Source: a virus. From it: DNA of 64,000 nucleotides. The stretch is taken from positions 64,001-128,000 of IMG/VR virus record IMGVR_UViG_3300037993_001242, one strand, 5' to 3'. The notes under the pieces were generated by a model that was given only the letters and a program-made list of their open reading frames with translations, searched no databases and was not told the DNA's origin. The number at the start of each line of letters is the position of its first letter. The first letter of the stretch is position 1. The position numbers and the translations under genes were made by a program. Positions 1 through 53,251 of this stretch are shown piece by piece.

Positions 1-43
1 TGGCCTTGGTCTGGTAATTGTAAAACGTGAAGCTGTACAGCAC
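1..43 (-). CDS. Partial CDS (N-terminus MLYSFTFYNYQTKA..., runs off window)
   Basis: GTG at 43 preceded by GTAGTTA-N4 motif; frame open to window edge. Confidence 0.45.
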   Translation of the reverse strand, partial: MLYSFTFYNYQTKA

Positions 44-58
44 GCCTTAACTACGAAA

Positions 59-137
59 TGGCGGCCTGACGCTGGTTTTACTCCAGCGTGTTAGCCCGTC
101 GCTCGTGCCCGTAAGCAGTTGCGTTGGGTTTCAGACC
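59..137 (-). ncRNA. Non-canonical tRNA-like RNA ending G-CCA
   Basis: Acceptor GGTCTGA/TCAGGCC-G-CCA, T-like arm CGCTGG-AGTAAAA-CCAGCG, one long irregular arm in place of D and anticodon arms. Confidence 0.6.
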
Positions 138-141
138 ATAA

Positions 142-218
142 TGGTAGCCCGGATGGGTTTCGATCCCATGATCTCTGCCTTGAAGGGGCAGCGTGTTAGC
201 CAGCTACACTACCGGGCC
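142..218 (-). tRNA. tRNA-Glu(UUC)
   Basis: Cloverleaf, CTGCC-CC-TTC-AA-GGCAG, CCA; T-loop ATCGAAA. Confidence 0.95.
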
Positions 219-224
219 GTAAAA

Positions 225-301
225 TGGTGCCAAGGGGTGGCTTCGATCCACCGACACAAAGATTTTCAGTCTTCTGCTCTACCGGGCTGAGCTACCTTGA
301 C
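225..301 (-). tRNA. tRNA-Phe(GAA)
   Basis: Cloverleaf, loop CT-GAA-AA, CCA; T-loop ATCGAAG. Confidence 0.95.
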
Positions 302-305
302 AAAG

Positions 306-382
306 TGGTCGTCACGGTTGGCTTCGATCCAACGGCCTGTCGGTTATCGACCGACTGCTCTACCGGGCTGAGCTACGTGACG
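306..382 (-). tRNA. tRNA-Ile(GAU)
   Basis: GTCGG-TC-GAT-AA-CCGAC (C33), CCA; T-loop ATCGAAG. Confidence 0.93.
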
Positions 383-386
383 AAAT

Positions 387-520
387 ATAACGGGCAAGGA
401 TCGGCGTGGATGTTTTTAGCGCTCTACCGTTGAGCTATCCCGGCATTGGAGCCGGGAACAGGACTCGAACCTGTATCTCCTCATTAGCATTGAGATAACC
501 CACAACACTTCGGCCCGTTA
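387..520 (-). ncRNA. Y RNA (YrlA-like) with circularly permuted tRNA module
   Basis: Terminal stem TAACGGGC(C)GA/TTGCCCGTTA with bulged C; inside, T arm, acceptor 3' strand-T-CCA, AT linker, acceptor 5' strand, D arm. Confidence 0.85.
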
Positions 521-523
521 AAA

Positions 524-611
524 TGGCGGCGGGTAAAGGAATCCAACCTCTGCTGCTGTTACGCAGGCCACAGTTTTCGGAACTGGCACCTTAGCGCTCG
601 GTCAACCCGCC
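524..611 (-). tRNA. tRNA-Ser(CGA)
   Basis: Long variable arm, loop TC-CGA-AA, G73-CCA; C19/G56. Confidence 0.9.
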
Positions 612-626
612 AAAAATCAATTACGG

Positions 627-716
627 TGGCGGAGGGGCAAGGATTTGAACCTTGGCACGTATTACCGTGGCCTCAACTTTCCAAGCTGGCACCTTACCGG
701 ACTCGGTCAACCCTCC
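627..716 (-). tRNA. tRNA-Ser(GGA)
   Basis: Long variable arm, loop TT-GGA-AA, G73-CCA; canonical T-loop. Confidence 0.95.
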
Positions 717-718
717 AC

Positions 719-1072
719 TCAGGCGATGATCGCGTACTGAAGCTCGTATCCGCGCTCTTTAACAAAATCATCAACTGCTTCCCGTTGCATGGGATTTAGT
801 GCTTCCGTGTTAGCGTACATAACGCGCCGCTCCACCGTGGCACGCACCCAACCAAGCTGTTTCATGTGCGAATACACATTCATGACTTTAGGATTTTTGA
901 TGACGTTCTCCTGTGCCCATTTTTGGTGGCCACCCACCTTGGTTATTTTGCCCTCTGGGCTGATCCAGTAATTGTCGGGCATAGGCTGCCACATGGTGCG
1001 CCCGTATACATCTTTACCGTAATCGATGCGCCCATATTCGAGCAGTGCGTCCACGACTTGTTTTGCGTCCAC
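719..1072 (-). CDS. Hypothetical protein with N-terminal AKQVVDALLE tag
   Basis: ORF-track start lies inside tRNA-Ser; GTG at 1072 follows GTAGTTA-N4. Confidence 0.75.
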   Translation of the reverse strand: MDAKQVVDALLEYGRIDYGKDVYGRTMWQPMPDNYWISPEGKITKVGGHQKWAQENVIKNPKVMNVYSHMKQLGWVRATVERRVMYANTEALNPMQREAVDDFVKERGYELQYAIIA

Positions 1073-1087
1073 GTCGTAACTACAAAA

Positions 1088-1175
1088 TGGCGGAGGGTAC
1101 AGGGATTCAACCTGTGCCGGTTTTACCCGGTCGACGGTTTTCAAGACCGTAGCATTCGCGCTCTGCCAACCCTCC
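1088..1175 (-). tRNA. tRNA-Ser(UGA)
   Basis: ACGGT-CT-TGA-AA-ACCGT, long variable arm, G73-CCA; C19/G56. Confidence 0.93.
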
Positions 1176-1176
1176 G

Positions 1177-1253
1177 TGGCGTCCCCGGCAGGAGTCCAAC
1201 CTGCGACACAGTCGTTTAGGAAACGACGGCTCTTGCAACTGAGCTACGGGGAC
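1177..1253 (-). tRNA. tRNA-Arg(CCU)
   Basis: GTCGT-TT-CCT-AA-ACGAC, CCA; C19/G56. Confidence 0.93.
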
Positions 1254-1257
1254 AAAA

Positions 1258-1875
1258 TCAAGTGACCAGATAACCACCACGCAGGAAACCGTGCCAGCCG
1301 CCACACACGATTGATCCGGCACCGGCGGCGCAGGTGTTCCCGTTCTTGTCTACGGTCAAATCTGGCGCAATGCCATGGCGCACCCAACATTCGTGCGGTT
1401 CCTTGGGCCGGGTGCAGTTGGAAGCCTGACTGTCAATCGACCACTCGCCGCCCGGCGTCCGGCAGACATAGTAATGCCCGTCCGAGCGTTTATAGCTGTC
1501 CGGCATCCACGCGGCGTCCCAGATAGCCCCCACGGGCGGCTGGCGCAGCGATGCAAGCTCCTGCGTGTCCGAACGCTGGTACAGCCGGTCGTAATTGACC
1601 TGCCATTCGTCACTTTCCAGAAACACATAGCCGCAGGCACATTGGCGGGGCCAGCGGAGATCATCGTGCGGAAACTGTTTCTCGTCATCGCCGCACGTCG
1701 GATGCTCGGCGTATTCAATCTTGGGATTGATTTCGGTGCTCACGTCGTGGTAGCCCTGTGGCAACGGGCATGGATTTTTGGGCGTATCCTCGCGCCAGTC
1801 CGACCGATACCGGCGCAGGGACAGGTTGTAAAAATTTGTGGGCGTCAGCAGAAAGCAACGGATCGGTTTACACAT
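1258..1875 (-). CDS. Hypothetical Cys/His/Trp-rich protein
   Basis: 205-aa ORF, GTATTTA-N4-ATG. Confidence 0.75.
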   Translation of the reverse strand: MCKPIRCFLLTPTNFYNLSLRRYRSDWREDTPKNPCPLPQGYHDVSTEINPKIEYAEHPTCGDDEKQFPHDDLRWPRQCACGYVFLESDEWQVNYDRLYQRSDTQELASLRQPPVGAIWDAAWMPDSYKRSDGHYYVCRTPGGEWSIDSQASNCTRPKEPHECWVRHGIAPDLTVDKNGNTCAAGAGSIVCGGWHGFLRGGYLVT

Positions 1876-1914
1876 GCCTTAAATACCGGCGATTATGACT
1901 GTATTTAGGTAGCT

Positions 1915-2373
1915 ATGATGCCTGAAAGTCGTTCGATTGCGCTTCAGCTTGCGCAGCGGTTCGTCGAATACAAGGACAGGATCGAGGAGGTTGCCGCGCA
2001 GGTGCGCCGCCACAAACGAATCCTCGATCTTTGCCCGGTGCCGATGTTTTTGACGGATGAACACGGGAAATGCGTCTACGTCAATCCCGCCAAACTCAAA
2101 CTCGTCGGGGGCACCCTTGGCGAAATGCAGTACGACGGTTGGCAGCACTTTGTTTACCCGGAAGACCTGCCCCACTTGCTGAACGCGTGGACTCAATTCG
2201 TTTTAGACCACAACCAGCACACTTTTTCGTATACGTACCGGTATCAGCGCGCTGATGGCTCGGTGCTGGAAGTTGTGACCGAAGCCAGAATGCTGGACGA
2301 CCACAGCATTGTCGGTTTTGTGCTGCCCGTGAAATGCAGCGGCTGTTTCGATTTTTTCACTGTACACGGATAA
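1915..2373 (+). CDS. Stand-alone PAS-domain protein
   Basis: PAS pattern PMFLTDEHGKCVYVNPA...WQHFVYPED...YRYQRADGS. Confidence 0.85.
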   Translation: MMPESRSIALQLAQRFVEYKDRIEEVAAQVRRHKRILDLCPVPMFLTDEHGKCVYVNPAKLKLVGGTLGEMQYDGWQHFVYPEDLPHLLNAWTQFVLDHNQHTFSYTYRYQRADGSVLEVVTEARMLDDHSIVGFVLPVKCSGCFDFFTVHG

Positions 2374-2447
2374 TGCCTTTTTCATTTGGTGTATTTACTC
2401 CACAAGGTGTTTTTCCTTGAAGTTAAAATACGCAAAATCCATATAAA

Positions 2448-2903
2448 ATGAACAACATAATCAAAGCAACAACTGTCGGTTTGATCTGCACTGCGTCGCT
2501 GCTGGTCTGTCCGCTGTCCACGAAGGCGCAGTTCGTAACCAATCTCGTCACCTTCAGCAATGTGGTCATTCGGTCATCATCAGATGTCACCGGCCCTTAC
2601 ACTAATTTGTTTACGTTGCCGGATGTTACCCTTGAGTACCGGTATCACGTGGGATCGCTTCAACCGTTTTTTTATCATTTTAAGCTGAGCACGCCGGTCA
2701 TTGATGCTGATCTGTTTGAAACCAGCTTGACGCTCCAATATGCCTTCAATGCGGGCGGCCCTTACGATGACATTTATACTTATCCAACCATTGCTGTTAC
2801 CAATCCGGCAGGAAACGCCTTTTTCCGTTCTGCTTTCGATTTGACCGACACTAATTTTGTGTTCGTTGACCCTTACACCGTTCAGTTTGTACCGCCGCCA
2901 TAA
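2448..2903 (+). CDS. Secreted protein
   Basis: Signal peptide ending TKA-Q; beta-rich mature part. Confidence 0.7.
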   Translation: MNNIIKATTVGLICTASLLVCPLSTKAQFVTNLVTFSNVVIRSSSDVTGPYTNLFTLPDVTLEYRYHVGSLQPFFYHFKLSTPVIDADLFETSLTLQYAFNAGGPYDDIYTYPTIAVTNPAGNAFFRSAFDLTDTNFVFVDPYTVQFVPPP

Positions 2904-2906
2904 AAT

Positions 2907-2983
2907 TGGCACTCCCGGCAGGATTCCAACCTGCGACCTTGAATTTAGAAAATTCCTGCTCTATGCAACTGAGCTACGGGAGC
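2907..2983 (-). tRNA. tRNA-Arg(UCU)
   Basis: Loop TT-TCT-AA, CCA; C19/G56. Confidence 0.93.
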
Positions 2984-3015
2984 AAAAACGCGCAGCCGAA
3001 TCAACGGCTGCGCGT
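2984..3015 (-). terminator. Intrinsic terminator-like hairpin
   Basis: 11-bp GC stem ACGCGCAGCCG/CGGCTGCGCGT followed by T run on minus strand. Confidence 0.6.
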
Positions 3016-3035
3016 AAAATAGGCACAGCAACGAG

Positions 3036-3923
3036 TCAAGGTGAAGCTAACCTGTAAAATTTATGTGGTACTGACGGGGAAGCAGGAATAATGACTCCTG
3101 ATGCCGAAGTCATCGTCGTCGCGTAACCATCACTATTAGTCACTGTATATCCACATGAGCCATTGGTCACGATTGGAATCCCTTGTGAATCATACACGAC
3201 GTAAACGATATTAGCCAATTTAGACGCACTATAGCCAAAATACGTACCCCAATCAGAAACTGGTTGGGATACCCAGTTGGGAATAGACGTATAGCTTACC
3301 CAACCGGTGGCCGAATAAATTTCCTGACTCCATTGTACCAAATCAGTGGTGGACTCAAGATGTGCCGTGGTCATGGGATTGCCCTGTGTATCAAGGATTC
3401 CGGCCCGTGGAACAAAATTGGTAAAAGTGGTGCTGAATGACCAAATGTAAATGTTCGTCTGCCAGTCAGTCCATCCATTGTCAATGGCGCTCCAATAGTA
3501 AACAGTAGAATTGTTGGTCGCTATCAGGGCTTGACTGCTGTTGGTCTGGCCACTATTCTCCGCTGCCGGTTGCATTATAGCCTGCTGTTTAAGCAGGGGA
3601 GGGAAAAACGGCGGCATTGGAGGGAAAAACGGCGGTGGTGGAGGCGCTGGAGTCGGGGGCGGCTGCGCCGGAGTCGGTGCCGGAGTCGCTGGCGCAGACG
3701 GAAGACAACTGTTCAACCACATTACAAGGACTACGCCGCCTGCCGTTACAATCACTATCATAATTGCACCACATATTTGCACCGTTTGGTTGGGCTGTAC
3801 GGGGTTAGCCGCAAGCTGTTTGTTGGTATTCTCAGCATACACAGGCAGTATAAGCAGGATGACCATGAGGCTGACTGCGATCAAACGACACATTATTGAT
3901 TGAGTGAATTTTGATGTTTTCAT
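3036..3923 (-). CDS. Exported/membrane protein with Pro-rich linker
   Basis: Signal peptide, TM segment, poly-Pro linker, Asn/Thr-rich domain with ESTTDLVQW. Confidence 0.75.
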   Translation of the reverse strand: MKTSKFTQSIMCRLIAVSLMVILLILPVYAENTNKQLAANPVQPNQTVQICGAIMIVIVTAGGVVLVMWLNSCLPSAPATPAPTPAQPPPTPAPPPPPFFPPMPPFFPPLLKQQAIMQPAAENSGQTNSSQALIATNNSTVYYWSAIDNGWTDWQTNIYIWSFSTTFTNFVPRAGILDTQGNPMTTAHLESTTDLVQWSQEIYSATGWVSYTSIPNWVSQPVSDWGTYFGYSASKLANIVYVVYDSQGIPIVTNGSCGYTVTNSDGYATTMTSASGVIIPASPSVPHKFYRLASP

Positions 3924-3927
3924 AGAC

Positions 3928-4173
3928 TTACTTTTTGAGCAATGCTGCGAGCGCCATCAAGAAACAGCCTGCATTCACACAGTGAAGACCAATCTGACCG
4001 ACTTTGGGTGAAACCCACGGGGAGACAAAAAACCCCACTATTAGAATGTAAGCAATCCAGCAGGCAGTAAATATGACAAGCCGATTTTGGTGCTCCTTAC
4101 ACCAATTTCCGTAAGCTTGCCATCCGCGTTGGAGCGGCGCACGCACCGACCTGATTAGTTTTTCAGGTTTCAT
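3928..4173 (-). CDS. Small two-TM membrane protein
   Basis: ATG 6 nt after a sigma70 -10 box; two hydrophobic segments. Confidence 0.7.
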   Translation of the reverse strand: MKPEKLIRSVRAPLQRGWQAYGNWCKEHQNRLVIFTACWIAYILIVGFFVSPWVSPKVGQIGLHCVNAGCFLMALAALLKK

Positions 4174-4179
4174 ACCCAA

Positions 4180-4208
4180 ACTGTATGCGTCCAACAGGCG
4201 ATTGTCAA
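4180..4208 (-). promoter_or_regulatory. Sigma70-type promoter (leaderless)
   Basis: TTGACA-N17-TACAGT-N6-ATG. Confidence 0.75.
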
Positions 4209-4266
4209 CAGGAAATTACAAGACTGTAAGCATACGGTGTAAACGATTTGTATACAATAAGTTAAA

Positions 4267-4342
4267 TGGCTCCAGAGGCTGGGCACGATCCAGCAACATC
4301 CCGGTTAACAGCCGGGTACTCTACCAATTGAGCTACTCTGGA
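4267..4342 (-). tRNA. tRNA-Asn(GUU)
   Basis: CCCGG-CT-GTT-AA-CCGGG, G73-CCA; T-loop ATCGTGC. Confidence 0.95.
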
Positions 4343-4350
4343 ATAAAAAG

Positions 4351-4444
4351 CTTTTCAGCGACGGCAGTGCCTATGCCTGCGGCCCTGTAGGGGCGGCTTT
4401 GCACACAGTAGGCTTGCCGTGTGCAATCTTTACGCCGCTGAAAA
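4351..4444 (-). ncRNA. Unassigned four-way-junction RNA
   Basis: Closing stem TTTTCAGCGGCG/CGTCGCTGAAAA plus three internal hairpins. Confidence 0.45.
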
Positions 4445-4445
4445 A

Positions 4446-4518
4446 TGGTCGCGCCGGACGGAGTTGAACACGTCATCTCGCACTTCCGGGTGCCGCTCTA
4501 ACATTAAGCTACGGCGCG
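4446..4518 (-). tRNA. Atypical tRNA, 6-nt anticodon loop CCGGAA (identity uncertain)
   Basis: Intact acceptor CGCGCCG/CGGCGCG-A-CCA and D arm; anticodon arm GCAC-CCGGAA-GTGC; bulged T stem. Confidence 0.6.
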
Positions 4519-4526
4519 TTTTAAAA

Positions 4527-4602
4527 TGGTCGGGACAACCGGGCACGATCCGGCAACCTCTCGGCCCCAAACCGAGCGCTCTACCAATTGAGCTATGCCC
4601 CG
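4527..4602 (-). tRNA. tRNA-Pro(UGG)
   Basis: CTCGG-TT-TGG-GG-CCGAG, C1-G72, A73; T-loop ATCGTGC. Confidence 0.95.
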
Positions 4603-4796
4603 TCAGCAATGTAAAAATTGTTTTCTTCTCGCGGACATTCCTCATTCAAAAGAACCAAGCATCGCCGTATGCTTACATCGGACGTTCCATAACTTTCCGT
4701 GCAATGATCGCAGCGAGAACACGTCACAATAACGCTTGGTACCGGCCCGTGATCACCGTCCAATTCTGTTTCTTCAACAGTACATTCAACACGCAT
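4593..4796 (-). CDS. Small Cys-rich hypothetical protein
   Basis: MRVECTVEE...CSRCDHC; stop codon inside tRNA-Pro. Confidence 0.6.
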   Translation of the reverse strand: MRVECTVEETELDGDHGPVPSVIVTCSRCDHCTESYGTSDVSIRRCLVLLNEECPREENNFYIADGA

Positions 4797-4814
4797 ACAG
4801 CGTAGAACTGAAAA

Positions 4815-4891
4815 TGGTCTGGGTGACAGGCTTCGATCCTGCAACCTCGTGTACCCGAAACACGCGCTCTACCAGATTGAGCTACACCCAG
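4815..4891 (-). tRNA. tRNA-Pro(CGG)
   Basis: CGTGT-TT-CGG-GT-ACACG, CCA; T-loop ATCGAAG. Confidence 0.95.
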
Positions 4892-4900
4892 TTGAAATGG

Positions 4901-5200
4901 TCAGTCAATGATGACCGGAGAATCTGAATTAAGCCATGCAAAAAGAGTTGATCCTTTGTGCTGCTGAATAAGCAAACGCGACTGATGCCCGCAGCACGAG
5001 CAGTCAAAATTGATTATTATTGCGTTTCTACGCCCCTGCATTTTTGTTTCTGGAACTGCCTCACTTTTTGGAGGATACGTACCTTGGATGGTCATCTTAA
5101 TTCCGTCGCCATCTTCAAAATGGGGTCTCTCATATATTTCGATCATGCTGTGGTGCATGTCGGCTGTTTCCCGACAGTTTGGACAAGCTAGTGCGTTCAT
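4901..5200 (-). CDS. Hypothetical Zn-binding protein
   Basis: CPNC near N-terminus and CSCC near C-terminus; fills gap between tRNAs. Confidence 0.7.
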   Translation of the reverse strand: MNALACPNCRETADMHHSMIEIYERPHFEDGDGIKMTIQGTYPPKSEAVPETKMQGRRNAIIINFDCSCCGHQSRLLIQQHKGSTLFAWLNSDSPVIID

Positions 5201-5220
5201 ACGCCCACAAGAACGTAAAA

Positions 5221-5297
5221 TGGTCGGGATGACGGGCTTCGATCCCGTGACCTCCAGTCCCCCAGACTGGCGCGCTACCTGACTGCGCTACATCCCG
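5221..5297 (-). tRNA. tRNA-Pro(GGG)
   Basis: CCAGT-CT-GGG-GG-ACTGG, CCA; T-loop ATCGAAG. Confidence 0.95.
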
Positions 5298-5298
5298 G

Positions 5299-5586
5299 TT
5301 AAGATTTGGTTGGTATGGCATCAGCCAGCCGCGCCAAAACATCACCATGACAGGGCATCGGCCAGCACCAGCAACCCAACGTTTTGTCCTTCAATTCGTG
5401 CAGGCTGGCCAACAACTCTGGCTGAGTTTTAATCCAGTCTTCATACATGGCGATGACTTCGTCGCGGGTGCCGTCGGCTCCGATCCGGTAGGGGTTGCCC
5501 CACTTTGAACCTTCTGGAAAATCACGCGTACCTCGTCCGATGTATACATCGAATTTACTGTGCTTGCAATGGACAACTTTAGTCAT
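5299..5586 (-). CDS. DUF4326-family protein
   Basis: VVHCK...FDVYIGRG...SKWGNPY...LGCWCWPMPCHGDVL. Confidence 0.85.
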   Translation of the reverse strand: MTKVVHCKHSKFDVYIGRGTRDFPEGSKWGNPYRIGADGTRDEVIAMYEDWIKTQPELLASLHELKDKTLGCWCWPMPCHGDVLARLADAIPTKS

Positions 5587-5607
5587 ACTCCACAAGAACC
5601 AAAAGTT

Positions 5608-5688
5608 CCCCAAGCGGCAGGAGCACCGCCCGCCCGCGTTACTTCGTCACTGCCTGACTAACAGACCGTTGCGATGCTCAGCTTGGGT
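5608..5688 (-). ncRNA. Unassigned structured RNA, possible pseudoknot
   Basis: CCCAAGC/GCTTGGG and GAGCATCGC/GCGGTGCTC stems; bulge CTGCC complementary to internal GGCAG. Confidence 0.45.
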
Positions 5689-5692
5689 AAAT

Positions 5693-5758
5693 TGGCGGCC
5701 CTCGATATTACGGCGGCTGCGCCGCCACAAGAAGTGGCCACTTCTTGTATCTCAGGCC
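5693..5758 (-). ncRNA. Non-canonical three-way-junction RNA ending G-CCA
   Basis: GGCCT-GA-GATA/TATC-GA-GGGCC-G-CCA with two perfect hairpins. Confidence 0.55.
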
Positions 5759-5761
5759 AAA

Positions 5762-5839
5762 TGGCGGGACGTACGGGCTTCGATCCCGTGACCTTCCGGT
5801 AGACAGCCGGTTGCTCTAGCCAGACTGAGCTAACGTCCC
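5762..5839 (-). tRNA. tRNA-Asp(GUC)
   Basis: Loop CT-GTC-TA, G73-CCA; T-loop ATCGAAG. Confidence 0.93.
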
Positions 5840-5844
5840 AAAAA

Positions 5845-6150
5845 TTATGATCCGACGAGTTCGTCAGTGCCTTCCCACGTAAACTCCGAAACCGGCAGGT
5901 GCATTCCACACTGACAACAGTAGGTCGCACCGTAAAATTTTGGGTCGCGAGCGTAAGTTTCAGCGATGGCCAAGGCCATGGTCGTTTTCGCCCGGCAGGT
6001 ATTGTGGATGTACGACTGACGTACCGGTCGAATGAATCCTTTGGCGCGCTCCTCTTCGGACAGCACGAGGTATTTTTTCATCTGCGGTGTCGGCACTTTG
6101 TCCGCACCGTATCCTAAATCGGGGTCTTTTGGATCAGTTGTCAAACTCAT
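5845..6150 (-). CDS. Hypothetical phage protein (MSLTTDP...TYCCQC)
   Basis: True start after GTAGTTA-N5; the longer ORF-track call runs through tRNA-Tyr. Confidence 0.75.
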   Translation of the reverse strand: MSLTTDPKDPDLGYGADKVPTPQMKKYLVLSEEERAKGFIRPVRQSYIHNTCRAKTTMALAIAETYARDPKFYGATYCCQCGMHLPVSEFTWEGTDELVGS

Positions 6151-6164
6151 ACCTTTAACTACGT

Positions 6165-6226
6165 TGGCGGGCTTGGCTGTTAATTCAGCCCGTAGCGCGC
6201 CACGCGGCGGATCAGGCCGCAAGCCC
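6165..6226 (-). ncRNA. 62-nt mini-cloverleaf RNA lacking an anticodon loop, ending G-CCA
   Basis: GGGCTT/AAGCCC-G-CCA plus three hairpins; middle loop is the tetraloop CGCG. Confidence 0.6.
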
Positions 6227-6231
6227 ATAAA

Positions 6232-6322
6232 TGGTGGCAACGGCTGGAGTCGAACCAGCGGTGTTTTCCTCTTGGGTAGCGCTTTTACAGAGCGTTGTCT
6301 TCGCCACTTGACGCACGTTGCC
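6232..6322 (-). tRNA. tRNA-Tyr(GUA)
   Basis: Loop CT-GTA-AA, long variable arm, A73-CCA; canonical T-loop. Confidence 0.95.
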
Positions 6323-6333
6323 GTATTTAAAAC

Positions 6334-6846
6334 ATGAAAATCATTTACGCTATGGTTGTGGCTCTTGTCCTGACTGGCTGTGCAACTCAGCGGGGATTCC
6401 CGCCGAATAACGGCATCGGCAACTTTGACCGCTTGGACGACAAAGTCTATCGCGGCGCACAACCCTCGCACGAAGCCATTGCCAAACTGGCAAAAGCTGG
6501 CGTGACCAGAGTAATCAATCTCCGCCTGCCCGGCGATACGGCACCGTACGAAAAATCGGCGTGTCGGGCCGAAGGCATCGAATACTTCAACGTACCCATT
6601 GGTGGTTTTTCCGCTCCCACTGATGCCCAAGTACACCGGGTATTTTCTTTGATTGAGACCGCCCATGGGCCGGTCTACATCCATTGCCAGTGGGGCTGTG
6701 ACCGCACCGGAACCATGTGCGCCTGCTGGCGAATCCATCACGATGGCTGGAGCAATGCACAGGCACTACAGGAAGCCGTCATTTACGGCCTGTCACCTTG
6801 GGAACAGAGCATGAGGTACTACATCCTGCATTACCACGAAAAATAA
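6334..6846 (+). CDS. Lipoprotein Cys-based (dual-specificity/tyrosine) phosphatase
   Basis: Lipobox LVLTGC; CX5R loop HCQWGCDRTG. Confidence 0.85.
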   Translation: MKIIYAMVVALVLTGCATQRGFPPNNGIGNFDRLDDKVYRGAQPSHEAIAKLAKAGVTRVINLRLPGDTAPYEKSACRAEGIEYFNVPIGGFSAPTDAQVHRVFSLIETAHGPVYIHCQWGCDRTGTMCACWRIHHDGWSNAQALQEAVIYGLSPWEQSMRYYILHYHEK

Positions 6847-6932
6847 CGGGCAAGGTTTTGGCATCGGGTATGCTGGGTTTCCCCGGCGGTTTGTATCAAT
6901 AACAAGATAACCGACAGTCCATTCGGCCCGTA
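6843..6932 (-). ncRNA. Y RNA (short form, no tRNA module)
   Basis: Same terminal stem as 387-520 (ACGGGC(C)GAA...GGTTATCT...CCTTGCCCGT). Confidence 0.8.
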
Positions 6933-6935
6933 AAA

Positions 6936-7011
<76 letters not shown>

Positions 7012-7016
7012 AAAAG

Positions 7017-7457
7017 TTATTCTTCATCTGCTGATTCCCAGTTGTTGCAGCAACCGCCCCAAAAAATCGGGCCGGTTACTTCTTTGCAGGAGCCTTCGTC
7101 CTTGCCGCCGGAATAATACTCGCAGTTGCCACAATGTGTCGGCCCATCCTCGATGTATCCGACGGCTTCTTTGGGCAGCAACTCCAGTGGCGTCGCACCT
7201 TCTTTCAGGAAAGTTTTGCCCCCGATGAAGGCTGCGCACACGCCATGTTCACCATCACAAGCTGGCGGCGTTGTGACGAAGCACTCACTCTTGGGCGTGT
7301 TAAAGAATATGCACTTGCCACAACGCGCACCGGGATCGGTTTGACCGGATTTGTTGAGCATGTCCGGGGTCATGTATACAACCTGTGCTTGGAGCATTTT
7401 GCCATCTTCGGCTTCATGCTCTTGCAGTCCCATCACCCGGCGCAAAATCGGATTCAT
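7017..7457 (-). CDS. Tandem HiPIP-like (4-Cys) protein
   Basis: Two CxxC...C...C units; second is CGNCEYY...C...GGCCNNW; GTATTTA-N4-ATG. Confidence 0.6.
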   Translation of the reverse strand: MNPILRRVMGLQEHEAEDGKMLQAQVVYMTPDMLNKSGQTDPGARCGKCIFFNTPKSECFVTTPPACDGEHGVCAAFIGGKTFLKEGATPLELLPKEAVGYIEDGPTHCGNCEYYSGGKDEGSCKEVTGPIFWGGCCNNWESADEE

Positions 7458-7474
7458 GCCCTAAATACCGGTCT

Positions 7475-7514
7475 GAAAATAGAAGGCCGGGGGGCTTCCA
7501 CGCTCCCCGGCCTA
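7475..7514 (-). terminator. Intrinsic terminator
   Basis: AGGCCGGGG/CCCCGGCCT stem followed by TCTATTTT. Confidence 0.65.
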
Positions 7515-7520
7515 AGTTTT

Positions 7521-7730
7521 ATACCAAGGCGTTTTTGAACTTTGATCGCCAACAGCCTGCTGTCCTTAGCTTAATCCCGGCGCTTTACCGCTGAGCTACA
7601 CCGCCATAGTTTTATGGGGGCGGTGACTGGATTTGAACCAGCGACTCCGGTTTGTTAGACAACACCTGTCAGGTCACGTCTTGCTATTGTGTAACGCACT
7701 AGGTGCGCTACGGTTGAGCCTTCGGGTGAT
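7521..7730 (-). ncRNA. Long Y RNA (YrlA-like) with permuted tRNA module
   Basis: ACC(C)GA/TTGGT bulged helix; T arm-CACCGCC-C-CCA, 9-nt linker, GGCGGTG, D arm; long extended stem. Confidence 0.72.
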
Positions 7731-7818
7731 AGCCTGACATTGAACTTTAATTTTAACCATCACCTTGAGCTTGGGCGAGCGGCCCGTAAAATCAATTTAC
7801 AGGCCGCCGCACCCGAAA

Positions 7819-8031
7819 TTATGGTTTGCCCTCCAGTTGTTTCAGCCGTTCTTTATAGATTTTTTCAATCTCGCTTTCCCTTATACCCCGAAGATTGCGG
7901 CCACCGGCATTCATACACGTCGCGTGCTCTTGCGTATTCGTGGTCAGCCTCTGCGCTTTTTCCATTTCAGCACGCCGCCACACGTCCAGTCTGCGTTTTG
8001 CGCTTTCGTCCATAAGACTATTTGTTGCCAC
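7819..8031 (-). CDS. Small charged hypothetical protein
   Basis: Overlaps the stop region of the upstream gene. Confidence 0.45.
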   Translation of the reverse strand: MATNSLMDESAKRRLDVWRRAEMEKAQRLTTNTQEHATCMNAGGRNLRGIRESEIEKIYKERLKQLEGKP

Positions 8032-8782
8032 TGAACACGAAGCTCAGCAACTGCTTGCCGATCTTCTTGGTCAGGTCGACTTCTTCGTCGTTGGCCCGTG
8101 AGCGCGCCCGGCGGACGGCTCGCGTCAGGATTTCGATCCGGTCGAGCAGTTCGGCTTTTTCCGCCGGGGTGATCAACGAAGACCACTCCTTTTCCTCAAC
8201 CTTGCCTACCGGCACATCGATGGCCAGCAACTGAGTCTGAGCCGGATGTTCCTTGGTGGCGTCGTACAGCACAATCGGCTTGGACTGTTTCTGCGTGCGA
8301 ATCTTGATCACTTCGCGTGCTTTGTAAACACCAGCGCCGCGCTGCGCATCCGCCACGAAACCCTTGGCCGGATCGAGCGTCGGGATGACCGCGATCAACT
8401 GCTGGATTTCCGTGCAGCGCTTTTCAAGCTCCAGCAGCGCCGTCGCCGGGACATCCTTAATTAGCACGGTACCCGCGTCGTCATCAAGCACGATGTCGGC
8501 CTTCGCCCGTGTATTGGCGTCAGCCACCTGATACGAGGCGTCGAGTGCCTTGGTCAGATGACCCTGAATCCATGTCAGTTCCTTGCCGACCGAGGTCTGC
8601 AAGAAGGACTGGGCTTCGGTCTGCGGCTCGGCTTTTTCCGCGTCGGGTTTGAAGACGACGTGCTTTTCCTCGAAAAGATGCCGCTTCTTTTCAAAGGTGT
8701 TGGCCTGATCGGTGCGGCACTTTTCGGCCTGCTGTTTCAGGCTGGTTTCAACTGCCAAAAGTTCATGTAGTTTGGTTGACAT
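8018..8782 (-). CDS. Conserved-looking large-phage hypothetical protein
   Basis: 254-aa helical ORF behind a sigma70 promoter. Confidence 0.8.
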   Translation of the reverse strand: MSTKLHELLAVETSLKQQAEKCRTDQANTFEKKRHLFEEKHVVFKPDAEKAEPQTEAQSFLQTSVGKELTWIQGHLTKALDASYQVADANTRAKADIVLDDDAGTVLIKDVPATALLELEKRCTEIQQLIAVIPTLDPAKGFVADAQRGAGVYKAREVIKIRTQKQSKPIVLYDATKEHPAQTQLLAIDVPVGKVEEKEWSSLITPAEKAELLDRIEILTRAVRRARSRANDEEVDLTKKIGKQLLSFVFSGNK

Positions 8783-8791
8783 AGTGGTTGG

Positions 8792-8819
8792 AGTGTATAC
8801 GCGTTAGATTTCTTGTCAA
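8792..8819 (-). promoter_or_regulatory. Sigma70-type promoter
   Basis: TTGACA-N16-TACACT. Confidence 0.7.
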
Positions 8820-8829
8820 CTTAAAATTT

Positions 8830-8905
8830 TGGTGGAGCCGAGGGGGTACGATCCCCTGACCTCCTGAATGCCATTCAGGCGCTCTGCCAACTGAGCTACG
8901 ACCCC
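8830..8905 (-). tRNA. tRNA-Ala(GGC)
   Basis: G3-U70, loop AT-GGC-AT, CCA; T-loop ATCGTAC. Confidence 0.95.
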
Positions 8906-8909
8906 AAAA

Positions 8910-9180
8910 GGGTGCTGCTGCCCGTTTTTCGCAGGCGTCGCCTTCCCGTTCACGGCTGGTTAGGTCTCAATTCTCCAGACGCTTATGGACTTGGCGCAAT
9001 AGTTGGCATCACGCACACGCCGCCCAAGACCGGGGCGTGCTCCGCGCTTAGTACACCAACCCGCAGCATAAATTAAAGAGCCGGGCCGAGTTTGCGACAG
9101 CGATTGCAACCGCCGCGCCTGATCGTGTGGCCTCTGCGTCCACCTTCCGGTGCGCAACCGGAATACTCCCCGGATACCGT
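8910..9180 (-). ncRNA. Unassigned structured RNA region (probably two units)
   Basis: Nested helices, e.g. TTCCGGT/ACCGGAA, GTTGGTGT/ATGCCAAC, GCACGCC/GGCGTGT; no credible ORF. Confidence 0.4.
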
Positions 9181-9184
9181 CGTC

Positions 9185-9259
9185 TGGTGGAGCCGATGGG
9201 GATTCAACCCACGACCTCCCGCGTGCGAGGCGGGCGCTCTGGCGCTGAGCTACGACCCC
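9185..9259 (-). tRNA. tRNA-Ala(CGC)
   Basis: G3-U70, CCCGC-CT-CGC-AC-GCGGG; C19/G56. Confidence 0.93.
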
Positions 9260-9266
9260 AAATGAA

Positions 9267-9553
9267 TTCCCCAGATGTCAGGAATCACCCAACATAGTCG
9301 CAAACGTGAGTCTTTATGAGTATTCGGCCATTTGGCTCCATCGGTAGCACTCCGACTTCGATACCAAAGCAGGGCTTTACCTGCAATACGGGTTGGTTTG
9401 ATTGGCACTTCCCGTAAACGACGTTAGCTGACCGAGCTACCTAATCAGCCTTAGCCACATTACGTTTGCCATGCTCTTCCCACGCTACGAGACGATTCCA
9501 AGCTTACGGAACCTGCCTTTGCCCCCACCAAAGAGGCTTCAGCCACTGGAGAA
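9267..9553 (-). ncRNA. Unassigned ~290-nt multi-helix RNA
   Basis: Terminal helix TTCTCCAG/CTGGGGAA, long-range GCAAACGT/ACGTTTGC, at least 5 local hairpins. Confidence 0.55.
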
Positions 9554-9555
9554 AT

Positions 9556-9631
9556 TGGTGGAATCGACCGGGAACGATCCGGCAACTTTCGGCTTGCAAA
9601 ACCGACGCTCTACCGATTGAGCTACGACCCC
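9556..9631 (-). tRNA. tRNA-Ala(UGC)
   Basis: G3-U70, loop TT-TGC-AA, CCA; T-loop ATCGTTC. Confidence 0.95.
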
Positions 9632-10071
9632 TTTGAAATTGATGCGCGATACGCTTTGAGTTTGACCCGCCGGTCATCGTCAAACGGAATTTCACCGCCC
9701 AAATGGACGCCTTCGTAAATGGCCTCCCGGAGCAGCAGTTCAACGTTCAGCGATTCCATGGCTTCGAGCAGCAGGTTGTCGCTTTGGTCTCTGGTCAACG
9801 TCGCCAACGTCCACGTACCGTCGCTGTTCAAAACTTGCAGGACGTTGCGGTAAGCGCCGTCGTGCAGGACGGTTCCCATCCAATAGGTGCCGAAAGGCGG
9901 AATGAGATTCCAGATCGCTTTGGGCGTGCTGGCCCCATCCGACGGGGAACCGGTCGGCATCATGTATTGGACGCCGTTTTTGGCCACGTACACGAGGTCT
10001 TCCAGCAGAACGATATGCCTGCCGTCACTGGTTTCGTTGGCAATCGTCGGCTTTTTGAATCCATATTCCAT
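9622..10071 (-). CDS. DUF1353-family protein
   Basis: SDGASTPKAIW...TVLHDGAY motif; GTAGTTA-N4-ATG. Confidence 0.85.
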   Translation of the reverse strand: MEYGFKKPTIANETSDGRHIVLLEDLVYVAKNGVQYMMPTGSPSDGASTPKAIWNLIPPFGTYWMGTVLHDGAYRNVLQVLNSDGTWTLATLTRDQSDNLLLEAMESLNVELLLREAIYEGVHLGGEIPFDDDRRVKLKAYRASISKGS

Positions 10072-10091
10072 GCCCTAACTACGCAACAAAA

Positions 10092-10165
10092 TGGAGCGAG
10101 TGAACGGTGTCGATCCGTCGTATCAGCCTTGGCAAGGCCGCGCTCTACCGTTGAGCTACACCCGC
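10092..10165 (-). tRNA. tRNA-Gly(GCC)
   Basis: CGGCC-TT-GCC-AA-GGCTG, U73-CCA; T-loop ATCGACA. Confidence 0.95.
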
Positions 10166-10231
10166 GTCACGCCGCGACATAACCGCGCTAAATCACGTTT
10201 CTAACACGTGCCAATCATGCAGCGGCAAAAA

Positions 10232-10307
10232 TGGCTGCCCGAAGTGGGGACGATCCACTACTCTTCTGATCCAGAGTCAGACGTGTTACCAGTTACACCA
10301 TCGGGCA
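10232..10307 (-). tRNA. tRNA-Gln(CUG)
   Basis: U1-A72, TCTGA-CT-CTG-GA-TCAGA, G73; T-loop ATCGTCC. Confidence 0.95.
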
Positions 10308-52084: not shown

Positions 52085-52261
52085 ATGGGAAAACCTGACG
52101 ATACTGAAATTGAAACTGTCGAGGAGCACCGCCATGACTGCGGTTGTGACTGCGGCTTTGATGACGAACCAACAACCGCCAGAAGCTGGGTCATATATGC
52201 TGTTGCCACCATCGGCGTGCTGATCTGTCTCGGCATCCTCTGGTACCTCCACAACCACTGA
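52085..52261 (+). CDS. Small membrane protein
   Basis: HDCGCDCG then TM helix. Confidence 0.55.
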   Translation: MGKPDDTEIETVEEHRHDCGCDCGFDDEPTTARSWVIYAVATIGVLICLGILWYLHNH

Positions 52262-52266
52262 CCATT

Positions 52267-52743
52267 ATGGGAAAACAAGACGAAACTGACGAGGCCGATG
52301 TGCCCAACACCACCACACCACCTGAACCGGCGGAACTTGCTTACAGTGCATACTGCACCATCCGCAACTGGAAAGCCGTCAACGGCGATCCGCTTCCGCT
52401 TTGGGCCGATGTCACGGAAGACATCAAAGAAGGCTGGCGCGCCGCTGTTAAAGCTGTCCTGCCTGCGAAAGAAACCGTCGTAGATAAAGGCGAGACCCTG
52501 CGACTGGCAACCAATCCAGCAGATGTGGAATTGCCCTTGCTCACCGAGGATCAGATCAACACCATGGATTTGGAGGAAGCTTGCTCCCAACTTGGCAACC
52601 GTGTATACAAGGTCTGCCTGCTGTACGAGCAACTTGAACACCGGGGCGTCGTTCGGGGCAACGGACATCACGCGGCACAGCATATTGCGAAGCTGGCTGA
52701 AACAGAGTTACGCGAACGCTGGATTACCAAACCGGCGGCATAA
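52267..52743 (+). CDS. Hypothetical protein
   Basis: 158 aa in operon. Confidence 0.65.
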   Translation: MGKQDETDEADVPNTTTPPEPAELAYSAYCTIRNWKAVNGDPLPLWADVTEDIKEGWRAAVKAVLPAKETVVDKGETLRLATNPADVELPLLTEDQINTMDLEEACSQLGNRVYKVCLLYEQLEHRGVVRGNGHHAAQHIAKLAETELRERWITKPAA

Positions 52744-52786
52744 GCAGCACCAACAACCACTAAAACAAAACGAAAGGTATAAGCCT

Positions 52787-53251
52787 ATGGGCTATAGAGA
52801 CTACAGTCACGAAACATACACCGCCCGTATGCGGGAGCATACGGAAAAAGGAACCGATCCGTTTACGCACAGTGCGGAAATCCGCTCTGGCCACACGGAG
52901 ATGAAGGTTCACGAAAAACTCGATCCGTCCAAGAAAAACAAGGCGGGCCGGAACATCCGGGAAAGCTTTGACAGCGACACCCATCCCGAAAGTCACCCTG
53001 TTGCCGTCATCTTCGACGTAACCGGTTCCATGGCGAGCGTTCCCCGCATCTTCGTGGAAAAACTCGGCACCCTCATGGCGACGCTGGTCAAGAAGGACTT
53101 CCTCCAGCATCCGCACATCCTGTTCGGTGCGGTCGGCGACGCCACCGTCTGGATCGACGCCGAAACCCACCTGCGCTCGCACGGCGATCAGATTTTTGAT
53201 CTCACAAAAGTTCGAGCCTTTTTGACTGCCGCCCGGCCCTTCATAAAATAG
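52787..53251 (+). pseudogene. Truncated vWA-domain gene
   Basis: MIDAS-type DVTGSM and GAVGDA, then abrupt unrelated tail. Confidence 0.55.

What the first reader, a model, noticed from the sequence alone, without database searches (positions are those of the whole stretch)
387..520. Phage Y RNA with a circularly permuted, CCA-retaining tRNA module and a vertebrate-like Ro stem
Seen (minus strand): 5'-TAACGGGCCGAAGTGTTGTGGGTTATCTC...; then T arm ACAGG-TTCGAGT-CCTGT, TCCCGGC-T-CCA, linker AT, GCCGGGA, D arm GCTC-AACGGTA-GAGC; then ...ATCCAC...CTTGCCCGTTA. The ends form GGC(C)GA/TTGCC, a bulged-C helix. Established: this helix is the Ro60/Rsr-binding site of Y RNAs, and T-acceptor-D order defines bacterial YrlA tRNA mimics. 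From recall, the 5' strand nearly matches human Y5 (GUCCGAGUGUUGUGGGUUAU). Unusual here: an intact discriminator-CCA in the acceptor loop and a possible Ser(GCU)-type hairpin (TCTCA-ATGCTAA-TGAGG). RNase P plus 3' trimming could give a two-piece chargeable RNA. No Ro60/TROVE gene is in this window, so it may hijack a host Rsr.
Basis: partly seen in the sequence, partly recalled or inferred. Interest (0 to 1): 0.9.

Follow-up and report, generated by a model that had tools for sequence, protein, structure and literature searches.

The report
Phage Y RNA with built-in CCA
This stretch encodes a small RNA that most likely docks onto the phage's own Ro60 ring protein and carries a complete tRNA written in rotated order; it is a new member of the known YrlA class, unusual mainly in keeping a ready-made CCA end inside a loop.

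Summary
Window 388-520 (minus strand) folds into a terminal helix with a bulged C and the motif GCCGAAG. After that come GGUUAUC, an anticodon-like hairpin, a T arm, a 7-bp acceptor hairpin with loop U-CCA-AU, and a D arm.

It matches Rfam YrlA below threshold (35.9 bits, cut-off 69). A published-type mycobacteriophage YrlA scores no better (37.4).

A model built from ten relatives finds 63 homologues in phage contigs. Covariation is strong: 89% of cells are paired against 65% when shuffled, and 31 of 34 pairs show compensatory changes. The tRNA 15:48 tertiary pair also covaries (54 of 62).

The 199-kb phage encodes a full Ro60 10.5 kb away on the same strand, and at least four more Y RNAs in the same tRNA/tmRNA island.

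N-CCA at the start of the acceptor loop recurs in 10 of 60 relatives, in six lineages, and stays constant while the spacer behind it drifts. Cutting by RNase P into a two-piece RNA, as shown for Mycobacterium smegmatis YrlA, is therefore plausible but untested.

The 14-base identity with human Y5 is real.

This scan had already noted the Y RNA set in this genome and similar RNAs in many other genomes. No expression data were available.

The parts
388..520 (-). Whole Y RNA (about 133 nt), YrlA type
   Evidence: Rfam YrlA 388-517, 35.9 bits; own model R1 389-519, 116 bits; fold z = -3.5
508..520 (-). 5' strand of the Ro60-binding helix, with bulged C (512) and motif GCCGAAG (514-508)
   Evidence: Sequence. 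In 62 homologues G at column 9 is invariant, the bulge is C in 48, and the G.U next to the bulge occurs in 49 of 61. The GNCGAA(N)G motif is defined in PMC4201824.
388..397 (-). 3' strand of the Ro60-binding helix (CUUGCCCGUUA)
   Evidence: Pairs with 520-510. All 9 pairs of the lower helix vary, 7 of them on both sides; 89.5% of cells are paired.
494..503 (-). Upper-stem 5' strand and GGUUAUC motif, the part most like vertebrate Y RNAs
   Evidence: 14-mer identity with human Y5 and a 10-mer shared with Y4. GGUUA is near-invariant in the family, and the same motif is present in 8 of 9 Rfam-found RNAs next to Ro60 genes, which were collected without using it.
479..495 (-). Anticodon-like hairpin: 5-bp stem, 7-nt loop AUGCUAA
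   Evidence: 23 of 26 distinct relatives have a 7-nt-loop hairpin here; 18 of 26 have U at loop position 2 and a purine at position 6 (shuffles: mean 1.4, maximum 6).
475..478 (-). Variable-loop equivalent (AGAU); its last U pairs with A15 of the D loop
   Evidence: 15:48 covariation in 54 of 62, with no crossed combinations; 29 expected if independent.
458..474 (-). T arm with canonical UUCGAGU loop
   Evidence: 100% of cells paired, 4 of 5 pairs with compensatory change. Only 4 of the phage's 39 ordinary tRNAs keep a UUC T loop.
438..457 (-). Acceptor hairpin: 7-bp stem (457-451 with 444-438) and loop U-CCA-AU (450-445). Predicted RNase P site lies between 445 and 444.
   Evidence: All 7 pairs show compensatory changes, 95% of cells paired. 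N-CCA in 10 of 60 relatives. The cleavage site is inferred from the M. smegmatis precedent.
421..437 (-). U8-A9 connector and D arm (loop AACGGUA with G18 G19)
   Evidence: 98% of cells paired, all 4 pairs with compensatory change.
398..420 (-). G26, A-rich junction, and upper-stem 3' strand (411-406)
   Evidence: A conserved A-rich run follows the D arm, then C-C pairing with the G-G of GGUUAUC.
524..611 (-). Upstream tRNA-Ser(CGA) with encoded CCA, ending 3 nt before the Y RNA
   Evidence: Rfam tRNA 527-611; sequence.
306..382 (-). Downstream tRNA-Ile(GAU), starting 5 nt after the Y RNA; its RNase P cut would free the Y RNA 3' end
6844..6933 (-). Sister Y RNA (about 90 nt) with the same terminal helix and GGUUAUC but no tRNA module

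Best explanation
The element is a gene for a YrlA-type Y RNA, the RNA partner of the phage's own Ro60 protein. It sits inside a long minus-strand array of tRNA genes. It is most likely transcribed with them and released by the tRNA-processing enzymes: the upstream tRNA ends 3 nt before it and the next tRNA starts 5 nt after it. Its two ends pair into a helix with a bulged C, which is the known docking site for the Ro60 ring. The rest folds as a complete L-shaped tRNA written in rotated order: anticodon-like arm, variable loop, T arm, closed acceptor stem, D arm. This tRNA part is the effector end. By analogy with studied Ro60 particles, it probably tethers Ro60 to a host factor such as polynucleotide phosphorylase, or to a tRNA-binding protein, during infection. 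The acceptor stem has the full 7 bp and its loop reads discriminator-CCA-AU. I therefore think it more likely than not (about 55%) that host RNase P cuts between window positions 445 and 444 and that exonucleases trim back to CCA. That would give a two-piece RNA held together by its helices, with a tRNA-like CCA end, as in M. smegmatis YrlA. Shown here: sequence, fold, family membership by architecture, covariation, and co-occurrence with Ro60. Inferred: transcription, Ro60 binding, processing, and the role in infection.
For: The Rfam YrlA alignment covers the whole model. Model R1 finds 63 homologues: 89.2% of cells are paired against 64.7% when shuffled (0 of 500 shuffles reach it), slid controls give 34-49%, and 31 of 34 pairs have compensatory changes. 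The 15:48 tertiary pair covaries perfectly where it is present. When the module is un-rotated, ARAGORN calls it a 74-nt cloverleaf tRNA; the same holds for 24 of 29 relatives. The genome encodes Ro60 (TROVE 1e-39, vWA_Ro60 2e-38; best solved match Xenopus Ro60, 1e-106) on the same strand. Four further RNAs in the island share the same helix. Of 29 loci retrieved by the RNA pattern alone, 14 carry a Ro60 gene within a few kb. Both complete jumbo-phage genomes with N-CCA members have TROVE. R1 also hits the YrlA of mycobacteriophage Alice, a relative of the published ET08 example, at 70 bits. N-CCA occurs in 10 of 60 loops (binomial P about 1e-8) in six acceptor lineages, and it is kept while the spacer behind it changes. 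All 38 ordinary tRNAs of the island and the suppressor tRNA encode CCA, and the record holds no CCA-adding enzyme. Literature: RNase P cleavage and a CCA end of M. smegmatis YrlA in vivo (PMC4201824); a phage Ro60 binding phage Y-like RNAs and host PNPase (PMC12135203); a phage Ro60-like gene countering the ppl defence (PMC11482910).
Against: The Rfam score is half the gathering cut-off. The gene lies 10.5 kb from rsr, outside the 4-kb rule used in the 2014 survey. A relative with 79% protein identity in the neighbouring gene carries an HNH endonuclease gene in this slot instead, so this RNA is dispensable or a recent arrival, and I found no close orthologue. The paralogue next to rsr has CAA instead of CCA in the same loop, so a CCA is not required for a Y RNA in this phage. 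About half of my homologue set was collected with a pattern that demanded GGTTATC and the T loop, so the invariance of those two motifs is partly circular.
Confidence: 0.78

Rival explanations
1. It is the same Y RNA, but it stays in one piece. In this view the CCA and the two-base spacer are a leftover of its origin from two tandem copies of one tRNA gene and have no present function.
For: Most relatives close the acceptor stem with tetraloops or other loops lacking CCA. The sister RNA next to rsr has CAA at the same place. The dimeric-tRNA origin model is in print (bioRxiv 10.1101/312249). The S. Typhimurium and D. radiodurans RNAs are not cleaved.
Against: Within two lineages N-CCA is unchanged while the adjoining spacer differs in sequence and length, which points to selection on CCA. 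Every N-CCA member has a full 7-bp stem, the main RNase P determinant named in PMC4201824.
Confidence: 0.35
2. It is a tRNA mimic that works without Ro60, with some other protein partner. The terminal helix would then be only a clamp.
For: It lies 10.5 kb from rsr. Another rotated tRNA-like RNA in the window (about 7546-7672) has no Ro helix. Earlier scan notes describe tRNA mimics that are independent of Ro60.
Against: The helix carries the specific Ro signature (bulged C, invariant G, G.U, GNCGAAG). Four other RNAs of the island share it, including the one beside rsr. RNAs of this design co-occur with Ro60 genes.
Confidence: 0.07
3. It is a true circularly permuted tRNA gene. On this view the transcript is rejoined and processed into a working tRNA that reads AGY codons.
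For: The un-rotated sequence is a flawless 74-nt cloverleaf with anticodon GCU and an encoded CCA.
Against: The terminal helix shows no bulge-helix-bulge splice motif, and bacteria lack the splicing endonuclease that the known permuted tRNA genes need (my own knowledge). The anticodon triplet is not conserved across the family. The genome already has a normal class II tRNA-Ser(GCU). The terminal helix is the Y RNA helix.
Confidence: 0.03
4. It is a decaying remnant of two adjacent tRNA genes, with no function.
For: It lies in a tRNA array, and the Rfam authors warn that dimeric tRNAs can mimic YrlA hits.
Against: The acceptor strands are perfectly complementary and separated by only a 6-nt loop. 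Sixty homologues keep every helix through compensatory changes. The T loop is canonical, unlike most tRNAs of this phage.
Confidence: 0.02

Closest known systems
Mycobacterium smegmatis YrlA (Chen et al. 2014, PMC4201824)
   Same: It has a Ro-binding 5' motif, a rotated tRNA module with a 7-bp acceptor stem, and a hairpin with a 7-nt loop before the T arm. The hairpin is seen in the paper's primer sequence and in the close homologue L119. It is cut by RNase P in vivo and in vitro, and the 5' piece ends in CCA.
   Different: There the last two bases (CA) of the CCA tail are added after nibbling; here the whole CCA plus a 2-nt spacer is encoded. According to the paper only the 5' strand of the Ro helix is recognisable there; here both strands are. 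That gene lies directly upstream of rsr; this one is 10.5 kb away inside a tRNA array.
Mycobacteriophage YrlA (ET08 in the 2014 paper; Alice examined here)
   Same: It is phage-encoded, has the same order of elements including the 7-nt-loop hairpin, and scores under the Rfam threshold (37.4 bits). It matches my model at 70 bits.
   Different: In Alice the acceptor loop is an 18-nt insert without CCA, the motif reads GGUUACC, and the gene sits just upstream of the Ro gene.
Salmonella Typhimurium YrlA (Rfam RF02553; structure 6CU1; bioRxiv 10.1101/312249)
   Same: An L-shaped tRNA mimic with a T arm, a closed acceptor stem, a D arm, the 15:48 pair and a conserved UA.
   Different: It has a 6-bp closed acceptor stem, no CCA and no anticodon-like loop, and the Ro module continues from the anticodon stem. 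It is described as lacking a free CCA end and an anticodon loop.
Vertebrate Y RNAs (human Y5, Y4) and nematode stem-bulge RNAs
   Same: A lower stem with a bulged C in GG(N)CCGA, an upper stem, and UUAUC at the start of the loop. There is a 14-base identity with Y5. The short sister RNAs of this phage hit the nematode family RF01656 at 34 and 28.7 bits.
   Different: They have no tRNA module and are made by polymerase III with an oligo-U tail. The Rfam Y_RNA model gives no hit on this element at E up to 10.
Thermus phage phiLo Ro60 with Yrl1 and Yrl2 (PMC12135203)
   Same: A phage Ro60 that binds phage-encoded Y-like RNAs and forms a complex with host PNPase.
   Different: Those RNAs are described as stem-bulge-stem RNAs. 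The paper does not mention a tRNA-like domain or a CCA.
Two-piece tmRNA from circularly permuted ssrA genes (my own knowledge; Keiler and colleagues, 2000)
   Same: The precursor carries the CCA end internally, and processing removes the loop to leave two base-paired pieces with a chargeable end.
   Different: tmRNA has an mRNA part, is charged with alanine through a G3.U70 pair, and works with SmpB. None of these features is seen here (this RNA has C3-G70).

Membership tests
YrlA (Rfam RF02553; Chen et al. 2014) | GNCGAA(N)G motif near the 5' end | tested here: met
   GCCGAAG at window 514-508; motif definition.
YrlA (Rfam RF02553; Chen et al. 2014) | tRNA-like domain in the order T arm, closed acceptor stem, D arm | tested here: met
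   Rfam alignment; covariation in all three helices.
YrlA (Rfam RF02553; Chen et al. 2014) | tRNA tertiary signature: G15:C48 or A15:U48, U8-A9, G18 G19, T-loop UUCGA | tested here: met
   The window RNA has A15:U48; the family shows 54 of 62 compatible with none crossed; sequence.
YrlA (Rfam RF02553; Chen et al. 2014) | Score at or above the Rfam gathering cut-off (69 bits) | tested here: not met
   35.9 bits. The mycobacteriophage Alice YrlA also fails at 37.4 bits, so the model under-represents this branch.
YrlA (Rfam RF02553; Chen et al. 2014) | Encoded within 4 kb of a Ro60 gene on the same strand (survey criterion of 2014) | tested here: not met
   Same strand, but 10.5 kb away. The paralogue at genome 54379-54519 lies about 0.5 kb upstream of rsr.
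YrlA (Rfam RF02553; Chen et al. 2014) | Physical binding to Ro60/Rsr | not testable with these tools
   Needs EMSA or co-immunoprecipitation.
Metazoan Y RNA (Rfam RF00019) and nematode sbRNA (RF01656) | Bulged-C lower stem, upper stem and UUAUC | tested here: met
Metazoan Y RNA (Rfam RF00019) and nematode sbRNA (RF01656) | A match to the family covariance model | tested here: not met
   No Y_RNA or sbRNA hit on this element at E up to 10. Only the short sister RNAs approach RF01656 (34 bits against a cut-off of 38).
Circularly permuted tRNA genes (algal and archaeal type) | Bulge-helix-bulge motif at the joined ends, for the splicing endonuclease | tested here: not met
   The ends form a 9-bp helix with a single bulged C, followed by an internal loop and a 6-bp helix.
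Circularly permuted tRNA genes (algal and archaeal type) | An anticodon conserved among orthologues and needed by the genome | tested here: not met
   16 different triplets among 23 relatives; a normal tRNA-Ser(GCU) is present.

The most novel reading that the evidence does not exclude
After RNase P nicking, the encoded CCA end is charged by a host aminoacyl-tRNA synthetase, or is at least bound by tRNA-handling factors. The phage Ro60 particle would then pass as a tRNA, either to reach the translation apparatus or to act as a bait for host defence nucleases that cut tRNAs. In addition, this family (a full tRNA with CCA and spacer, hung on a eukaryote-like Y stem with UUAUC) would preserve the intermediate form that shows Y RNAs arose from tandem tRNA genes.
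Probability: 0.1. Interest if true: 0.85.

Novelty: new member of a known kind. Interest (0 to 1): 0.5.

Why it matters
YrlA RNAs are described in print as tRNA mimics that lack a free CCA end and an anticodon loop, with M. smegmatis as the one processed exception. This phage RNA and about one in six of its relatives encode the CCA outright, behind a full 7-bp acceptor stem, next to a complete anticodon-like arm. That makes a processed two-piece Y RNA a recurring design and not a curiosity. It also gives a concrete substrate for testing whether Ro60 particles ever use a tRNA-like 3' end. The retained CCA-plus-spacer fits the published idea that these RNAs arose from dimeric tRNA transcripts, with the refinement that the two acceptor strands, and not the spacer, form the acceptor stem. 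The close match of the stem and of UUAUC to human and worm Y RNAs bears on whether bacterial, phage and animal Y RNAs share ancestry, which reviews have doubted. Phage Ro60 proteins are now linked to hijacking of PNPase and to escape from a host defence, so their RNA partners are worth cataloguing.

Tried and rejected
There is therefore no evidence on transcripts or RNA ends.
- Rfam Y_RNA gave no hit on the element at E up to 10.
- Close orthologues: two exact-pattern scans of viral contigs found none. The two nearest Ro60 relatives (62% and 56% identity, both incomplete records) have only the rsr-adjacent tRNA-module RNA.
- The one metagenome relative anchored on the neighbouring gene carries an HNH gene in this slot. 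My first coordinates for that ORF were out of frame.
- Fetching M. smegmatis YrlA by the primers in the paper failed. The 18-mer gave 14 hits, about the number expected by chance, and none was mycobacterial. The 21-mer gave none. I used the close homologue L119 and the primer text instead.
- Recent derivation from one of the phage's own tRNAs is rejected. The best identity is 74%, near the 95th percentile of tRNA-to-tRNA identities, and the T loop differs from most phage tRNAs.
- RtcB, a CCA-adding enzyme and the RNase PH/PNPase domain are absent from the record, which is 82% complete.
- No sigma-70-like promoter or intrinsic terminator was found on the minus strand in window 1-3000.
- The 2020 Annual Review on bacterial Ro60 is not held, and the 2014 supplementary tables are not held.

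Full report
WHAT IS THERE

The two ends pair into a 9-bp helix interrupted by one bulged C (position 512). Inside this helix come, in order:
- an internal loop;
- a 6-bp upper stem that ends in GGUUAUC (500-494);
- a 5-bp hairpin with the 7-nt loop AUGCUAA;
- four bases (AGAU);
- a T arm with a canonical UUCGA loop;
- a 7-bp hairpin whose 6-nt loop reads U-CCA-AU (450-445);
- U-A, then a D arm with G18 G19;
- an A-rich junction that leads back to the upper stem.

The minimum-energy fold reproduces this layout at -49.7 kcal/mol, with z = -3.5 against shuffles. ARAGORN's call of a 68-nt tRNA-Ser(gct) at 447-514 is a misreading of part of this RNA.

WHICH FAMILY

Rfam's YrlA model aligns over its whole length (388-517). 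The score is 35.9 bits, against a gathering cut-off of 69; E is 1.3e-6 for the local search. It places the 11 nt of the anticodon-like hairpin as an insertion. This low score is typical of the branch. The YrlA of mycobacteriophage Alice, a Bixzunavirus like the published ET08 example, reaches only 37.4 bits.

I collected relatives in two independent ways:
- Next to Ro60 genes in viral contigs.
- By a DNA pattern (GGTTATC, a gap, then the T loop) in viral contigs.

A covariance model built from ten of them (A2, R1) then found 63 matches at E below 1e-9. These include Alice at 70 bits and the paralogue beside this phage's rsr at 62 bits.

On that alignment 89.2% of pair cells are standard pairs, against 64.7% after shuffling (0 of 500 shuffles reach it) and 34-49% when partners are slid by one to three columns. 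Compensatory changes occur in 31 of 34 pairs. Per helix, the share of paired cells is T arm 100%, D arm 98%, acceptor 95%, lower stem 89.5% and hairpin 65%. The alignment was fitted to the model, which inflates these figures somewhat, but the margin is large.

The tertiary 15:48 pair is G:C in 34 and A:U in 20 of 62 sequences. No crossed combination occurs, where 29 compatible pairs would be expected by chance. The window RNA has A15:U48. The module therefore folds as an L-shaped tRNA.

A COMPLETE tRNA IN ROTATED ORDER

If the D-arm end (G26) is joined to the hairpin, ARAGORN calls a clean 74-nt class I cloverleaf with anticodon GCU and discriminator-CCA. The same operation yields a tRNA call in 24 of 29 relatives.

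Among 26 distinct relatives, 23 have a hairpin with a 7-nt loop directly after GGUUA. Eighteen of them carry U at loop position 2 and a purine at position 6, the signature of an anticodon loop. Shuffles give a mean of 1.4 and a maximum of 6. The hairpin is usually followed by five bases resembling the common class I variable loop.

The triplet itself is not conserved: 16 different triplets occur, with GCU and UUU four times each. I therefore see no basis for a serine identity. The genome also has an ordinary tRNA-Ser(GCU).

Chen et al. shade 'V' and 'AS' arms in their YrlA alignment, which includes M. smegmatis. I take this hairpin to be their V (variable) arm. I read it as an anticodon arm because of its loop signature and the five bases that follow it. 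The tools here cannot decide between the two readings.

GENOMIC SETTING

The window is bases 64001-128000 of a 199-kb IMG/VR phage record from peat (53% G+C, 82% complete).

The record encodes a 580-aa Ro60 with TROVE and vWA_Ro60 domains at 52133-53875 on the minus strand. Its best solved relatives are Xenopus Ro60 (1e-106), human RO60 (7e-103) and Deinococcus Rsr (6e-101).

Between 50 and 74 kb the minus strand carries 38 tRNA genes, a tmRNA and at least five RNAs that share the same terminal helix and GGUUAUC:
- Two have tRNA modules: this one, and one 0.5 kb upstream of rsr.
- Three are short, 64-90 nt, and one of these lies at window 6844-6933.

An earlier scan note counts six; my motif search found five.

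Two of the short ones approach the nematode stem-bulge RNA family RF01656, at 34 and 28.7 bits against a cut-off of 38.

The Y RNA studied here begins 3 nt after the CCA of tRNA-Ser(CGA) and ends 5 nt before tRNA-Ile. No promoter-like or terminator-like site lies on its strand nearby. Release by the tRNA-processing machinery is the natural inference.

LINK TO Ro60

Of 29 loci retrieved by the RNA pattern alone, 14 carry a Ro60 homologue within the few kb fetched. Both complete jumbo-phage genomes that hold N-CCA members have a TROVE gene. Ro60 is rare in phages in general, so this association is strong. It remains co-occurrence, not binding.

THE CCA

All 38 ordinary tRNA genes of the island, and the suppressor tRNA, encode CCA followed by a T-rich spacer. 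The record has no CCA-adding enzyme.

In the family, 10 of 60 true members begin the acceptor loop with N-CCA, where about one would be expected (P about 1e-8). Two further calls are tRNA dimers and were set aside. The ten fall into six acceptor-stem lineages. In two lineages with three members each, N-CCA is identical while the spacer behind it differs in sequence and length. I read this as selection on the CCA. All ten have 7-bp stems.

Chen et al. showed that M. smegmatis YrlA, the only one they studied with a 7-bp stem, is cut by RNase P in vitro and in vivo, and that its 5' piece ends in CCA. Wang et al. add that the 3' end is nibbled before CCA addition.

The parallel prediction here is a cut between 445 and 444 and trimming of A-U. 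This would give pieces of about 75 and 57 nt held together by 22 base pairs. I put this at about 55%.

Three things count against it. The sister RNA beside rsr has CAA at the same position. Most relatives have plain loops. No RNA ends are known.

LIKENESS TO ANIMAL Y RNAs

The human Y5 sequence printed in two papers shares the 14-mer GUGUUGUGGGUUAU with this RNA, and Y4 shares GUGGGUUAUC. UUAUC is a recognised hallmark of vertebrate Y RNAs and worm stem-bulge RNAs (PMC4726728). The same review calls bacterial Y RNAs highly divergent and not homologous to the vertebrate clades.

In my set GGUUA is almost invariant, but about half the set was collected with that motif. The independent check is the RNAs that Rfam found beside Ro60 genes: 8 of 9 have GUUA(U/C)C.

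The conserved parts (GG-N-CCGA and GGGUUAUC) are thus a real shared feature. The seven extra matching bases in the variable part of the stem are probably luck; I estimate about a 1-2% chance across this many comparisons.

HOW IT PROBABLY WORKS

By analogy with studied systems, the helix docks on the outer face of the Ro60 ring and the tRNA-like end recruits or gates a partner. The precedents are:
- Deinococcus and Salmonella Ro60-Y RNA-PNPase particles.
- Thermus phage phiLo Ro60, which binds two phage Y-like RNAs and host PNPase and damps its activity.
- The Ro60-like gp130 of phage Bas63, which is needed to overcome the ppl defence.

The phage record has no PNPase, RtcB or CCA-adding enzyme of its own, so host enzymes would be used. 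All of this is inference.

NOT A FIXED PART OF THE ISLAND

A metagenome relative whose neighbouring gene is 79% identical keeps the flanking tRNA-Ser(GGA), tRNA-Ser(CGA) and tRNA-Ile genes. In the slot of this RNA it has an HNH_3 endonuclease gene. The nearest family members are only about 65% identical.

VERDICT

This is a new member of the known YrlA class, nearest to the M. smegmatis type. Its encoded CCA, complete anticodon-like arm and animal-like stem are worth recording.

The class, its presence in phages and its RNase P processing have been in print since 2014. This scan had already reported the Y RNA set of this genome and similar RNAs in many other genomes. Interest is moderate.

Noticed in passing
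window 6844-6933 (-): A 90-nt sister Y RNA with the same bulged-C helix and GGUUAUC but no tRNA module, directly after tRNA-Trp. Two more short ones lie outside the window, at genome 63733-63798 and 55790-55853; these two approach the nematode stem-bulge RNA family RF01656.
   Followed up: partly
window 7546-7672 (-): Another rotated tRNA-like module (T arm, long closed acceptor hairpin, D arm) without a recognisable Ro helix. Rfam YrlA gives 27.4 bits, and my model matches only its tRNA part at 40 bits. An earlier scan note pairs it with a DUF7873 gene.
   Followed up: no
L170 3620-4138 (+): In a close relative, an HNH_3 homing-endonuclease gene occupies the slot between tRNA-Ser(CGA) and tRNA-Ile where this phage has the Y RNA. 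The tRNA island is therefore a mosaic of cassettes.
   Followed up: partly
genome-wide tRNA set (window 142-10307 and genome 50-64 kb): Only 4 of the phage's 39 ordinary tRNAs have a UUC T loop, and 24 start the loop with A. Both tRNA-module Y RNAs keep the canonical UUCGA loop.
   Followed up: partly
window 527-611 (-): tRNA-Ser(CGA) is found by Rfam (38.7 bits) but missed by ARAGORN. Conversely, ARAGORN's tRNA-Ser(gct) at 447-514 is a false call inside the Y RNA.
   Followed up: yes
loci L052, L093, L096, L104, L027 and others: The tRNA modules hung on the same kind of Y stem resemble different tRNA species (for example a Glu-like D arm in three jumbo phages, and a GUGU/GCAC D stem in others). 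This suggests that modules were swapped or captured more than once.
   Followed up: no
genome 55346-55771 (-), outside the window: A phage tmRNA (Rfam 113.5 bits) for which ARAGORN reads an unusually long 33-residue tag. It lies immediately downstream of one of the short Y RNAs.
   Followed up: no
L096 (provirus record, 277 kb), L063, L082, L080: Several phages carry three or more Y RNAs in tandem, some with and some without N-CCA. This is reminiscent of the Y RNA gene clusters of vertebrates.
   Followed up: no
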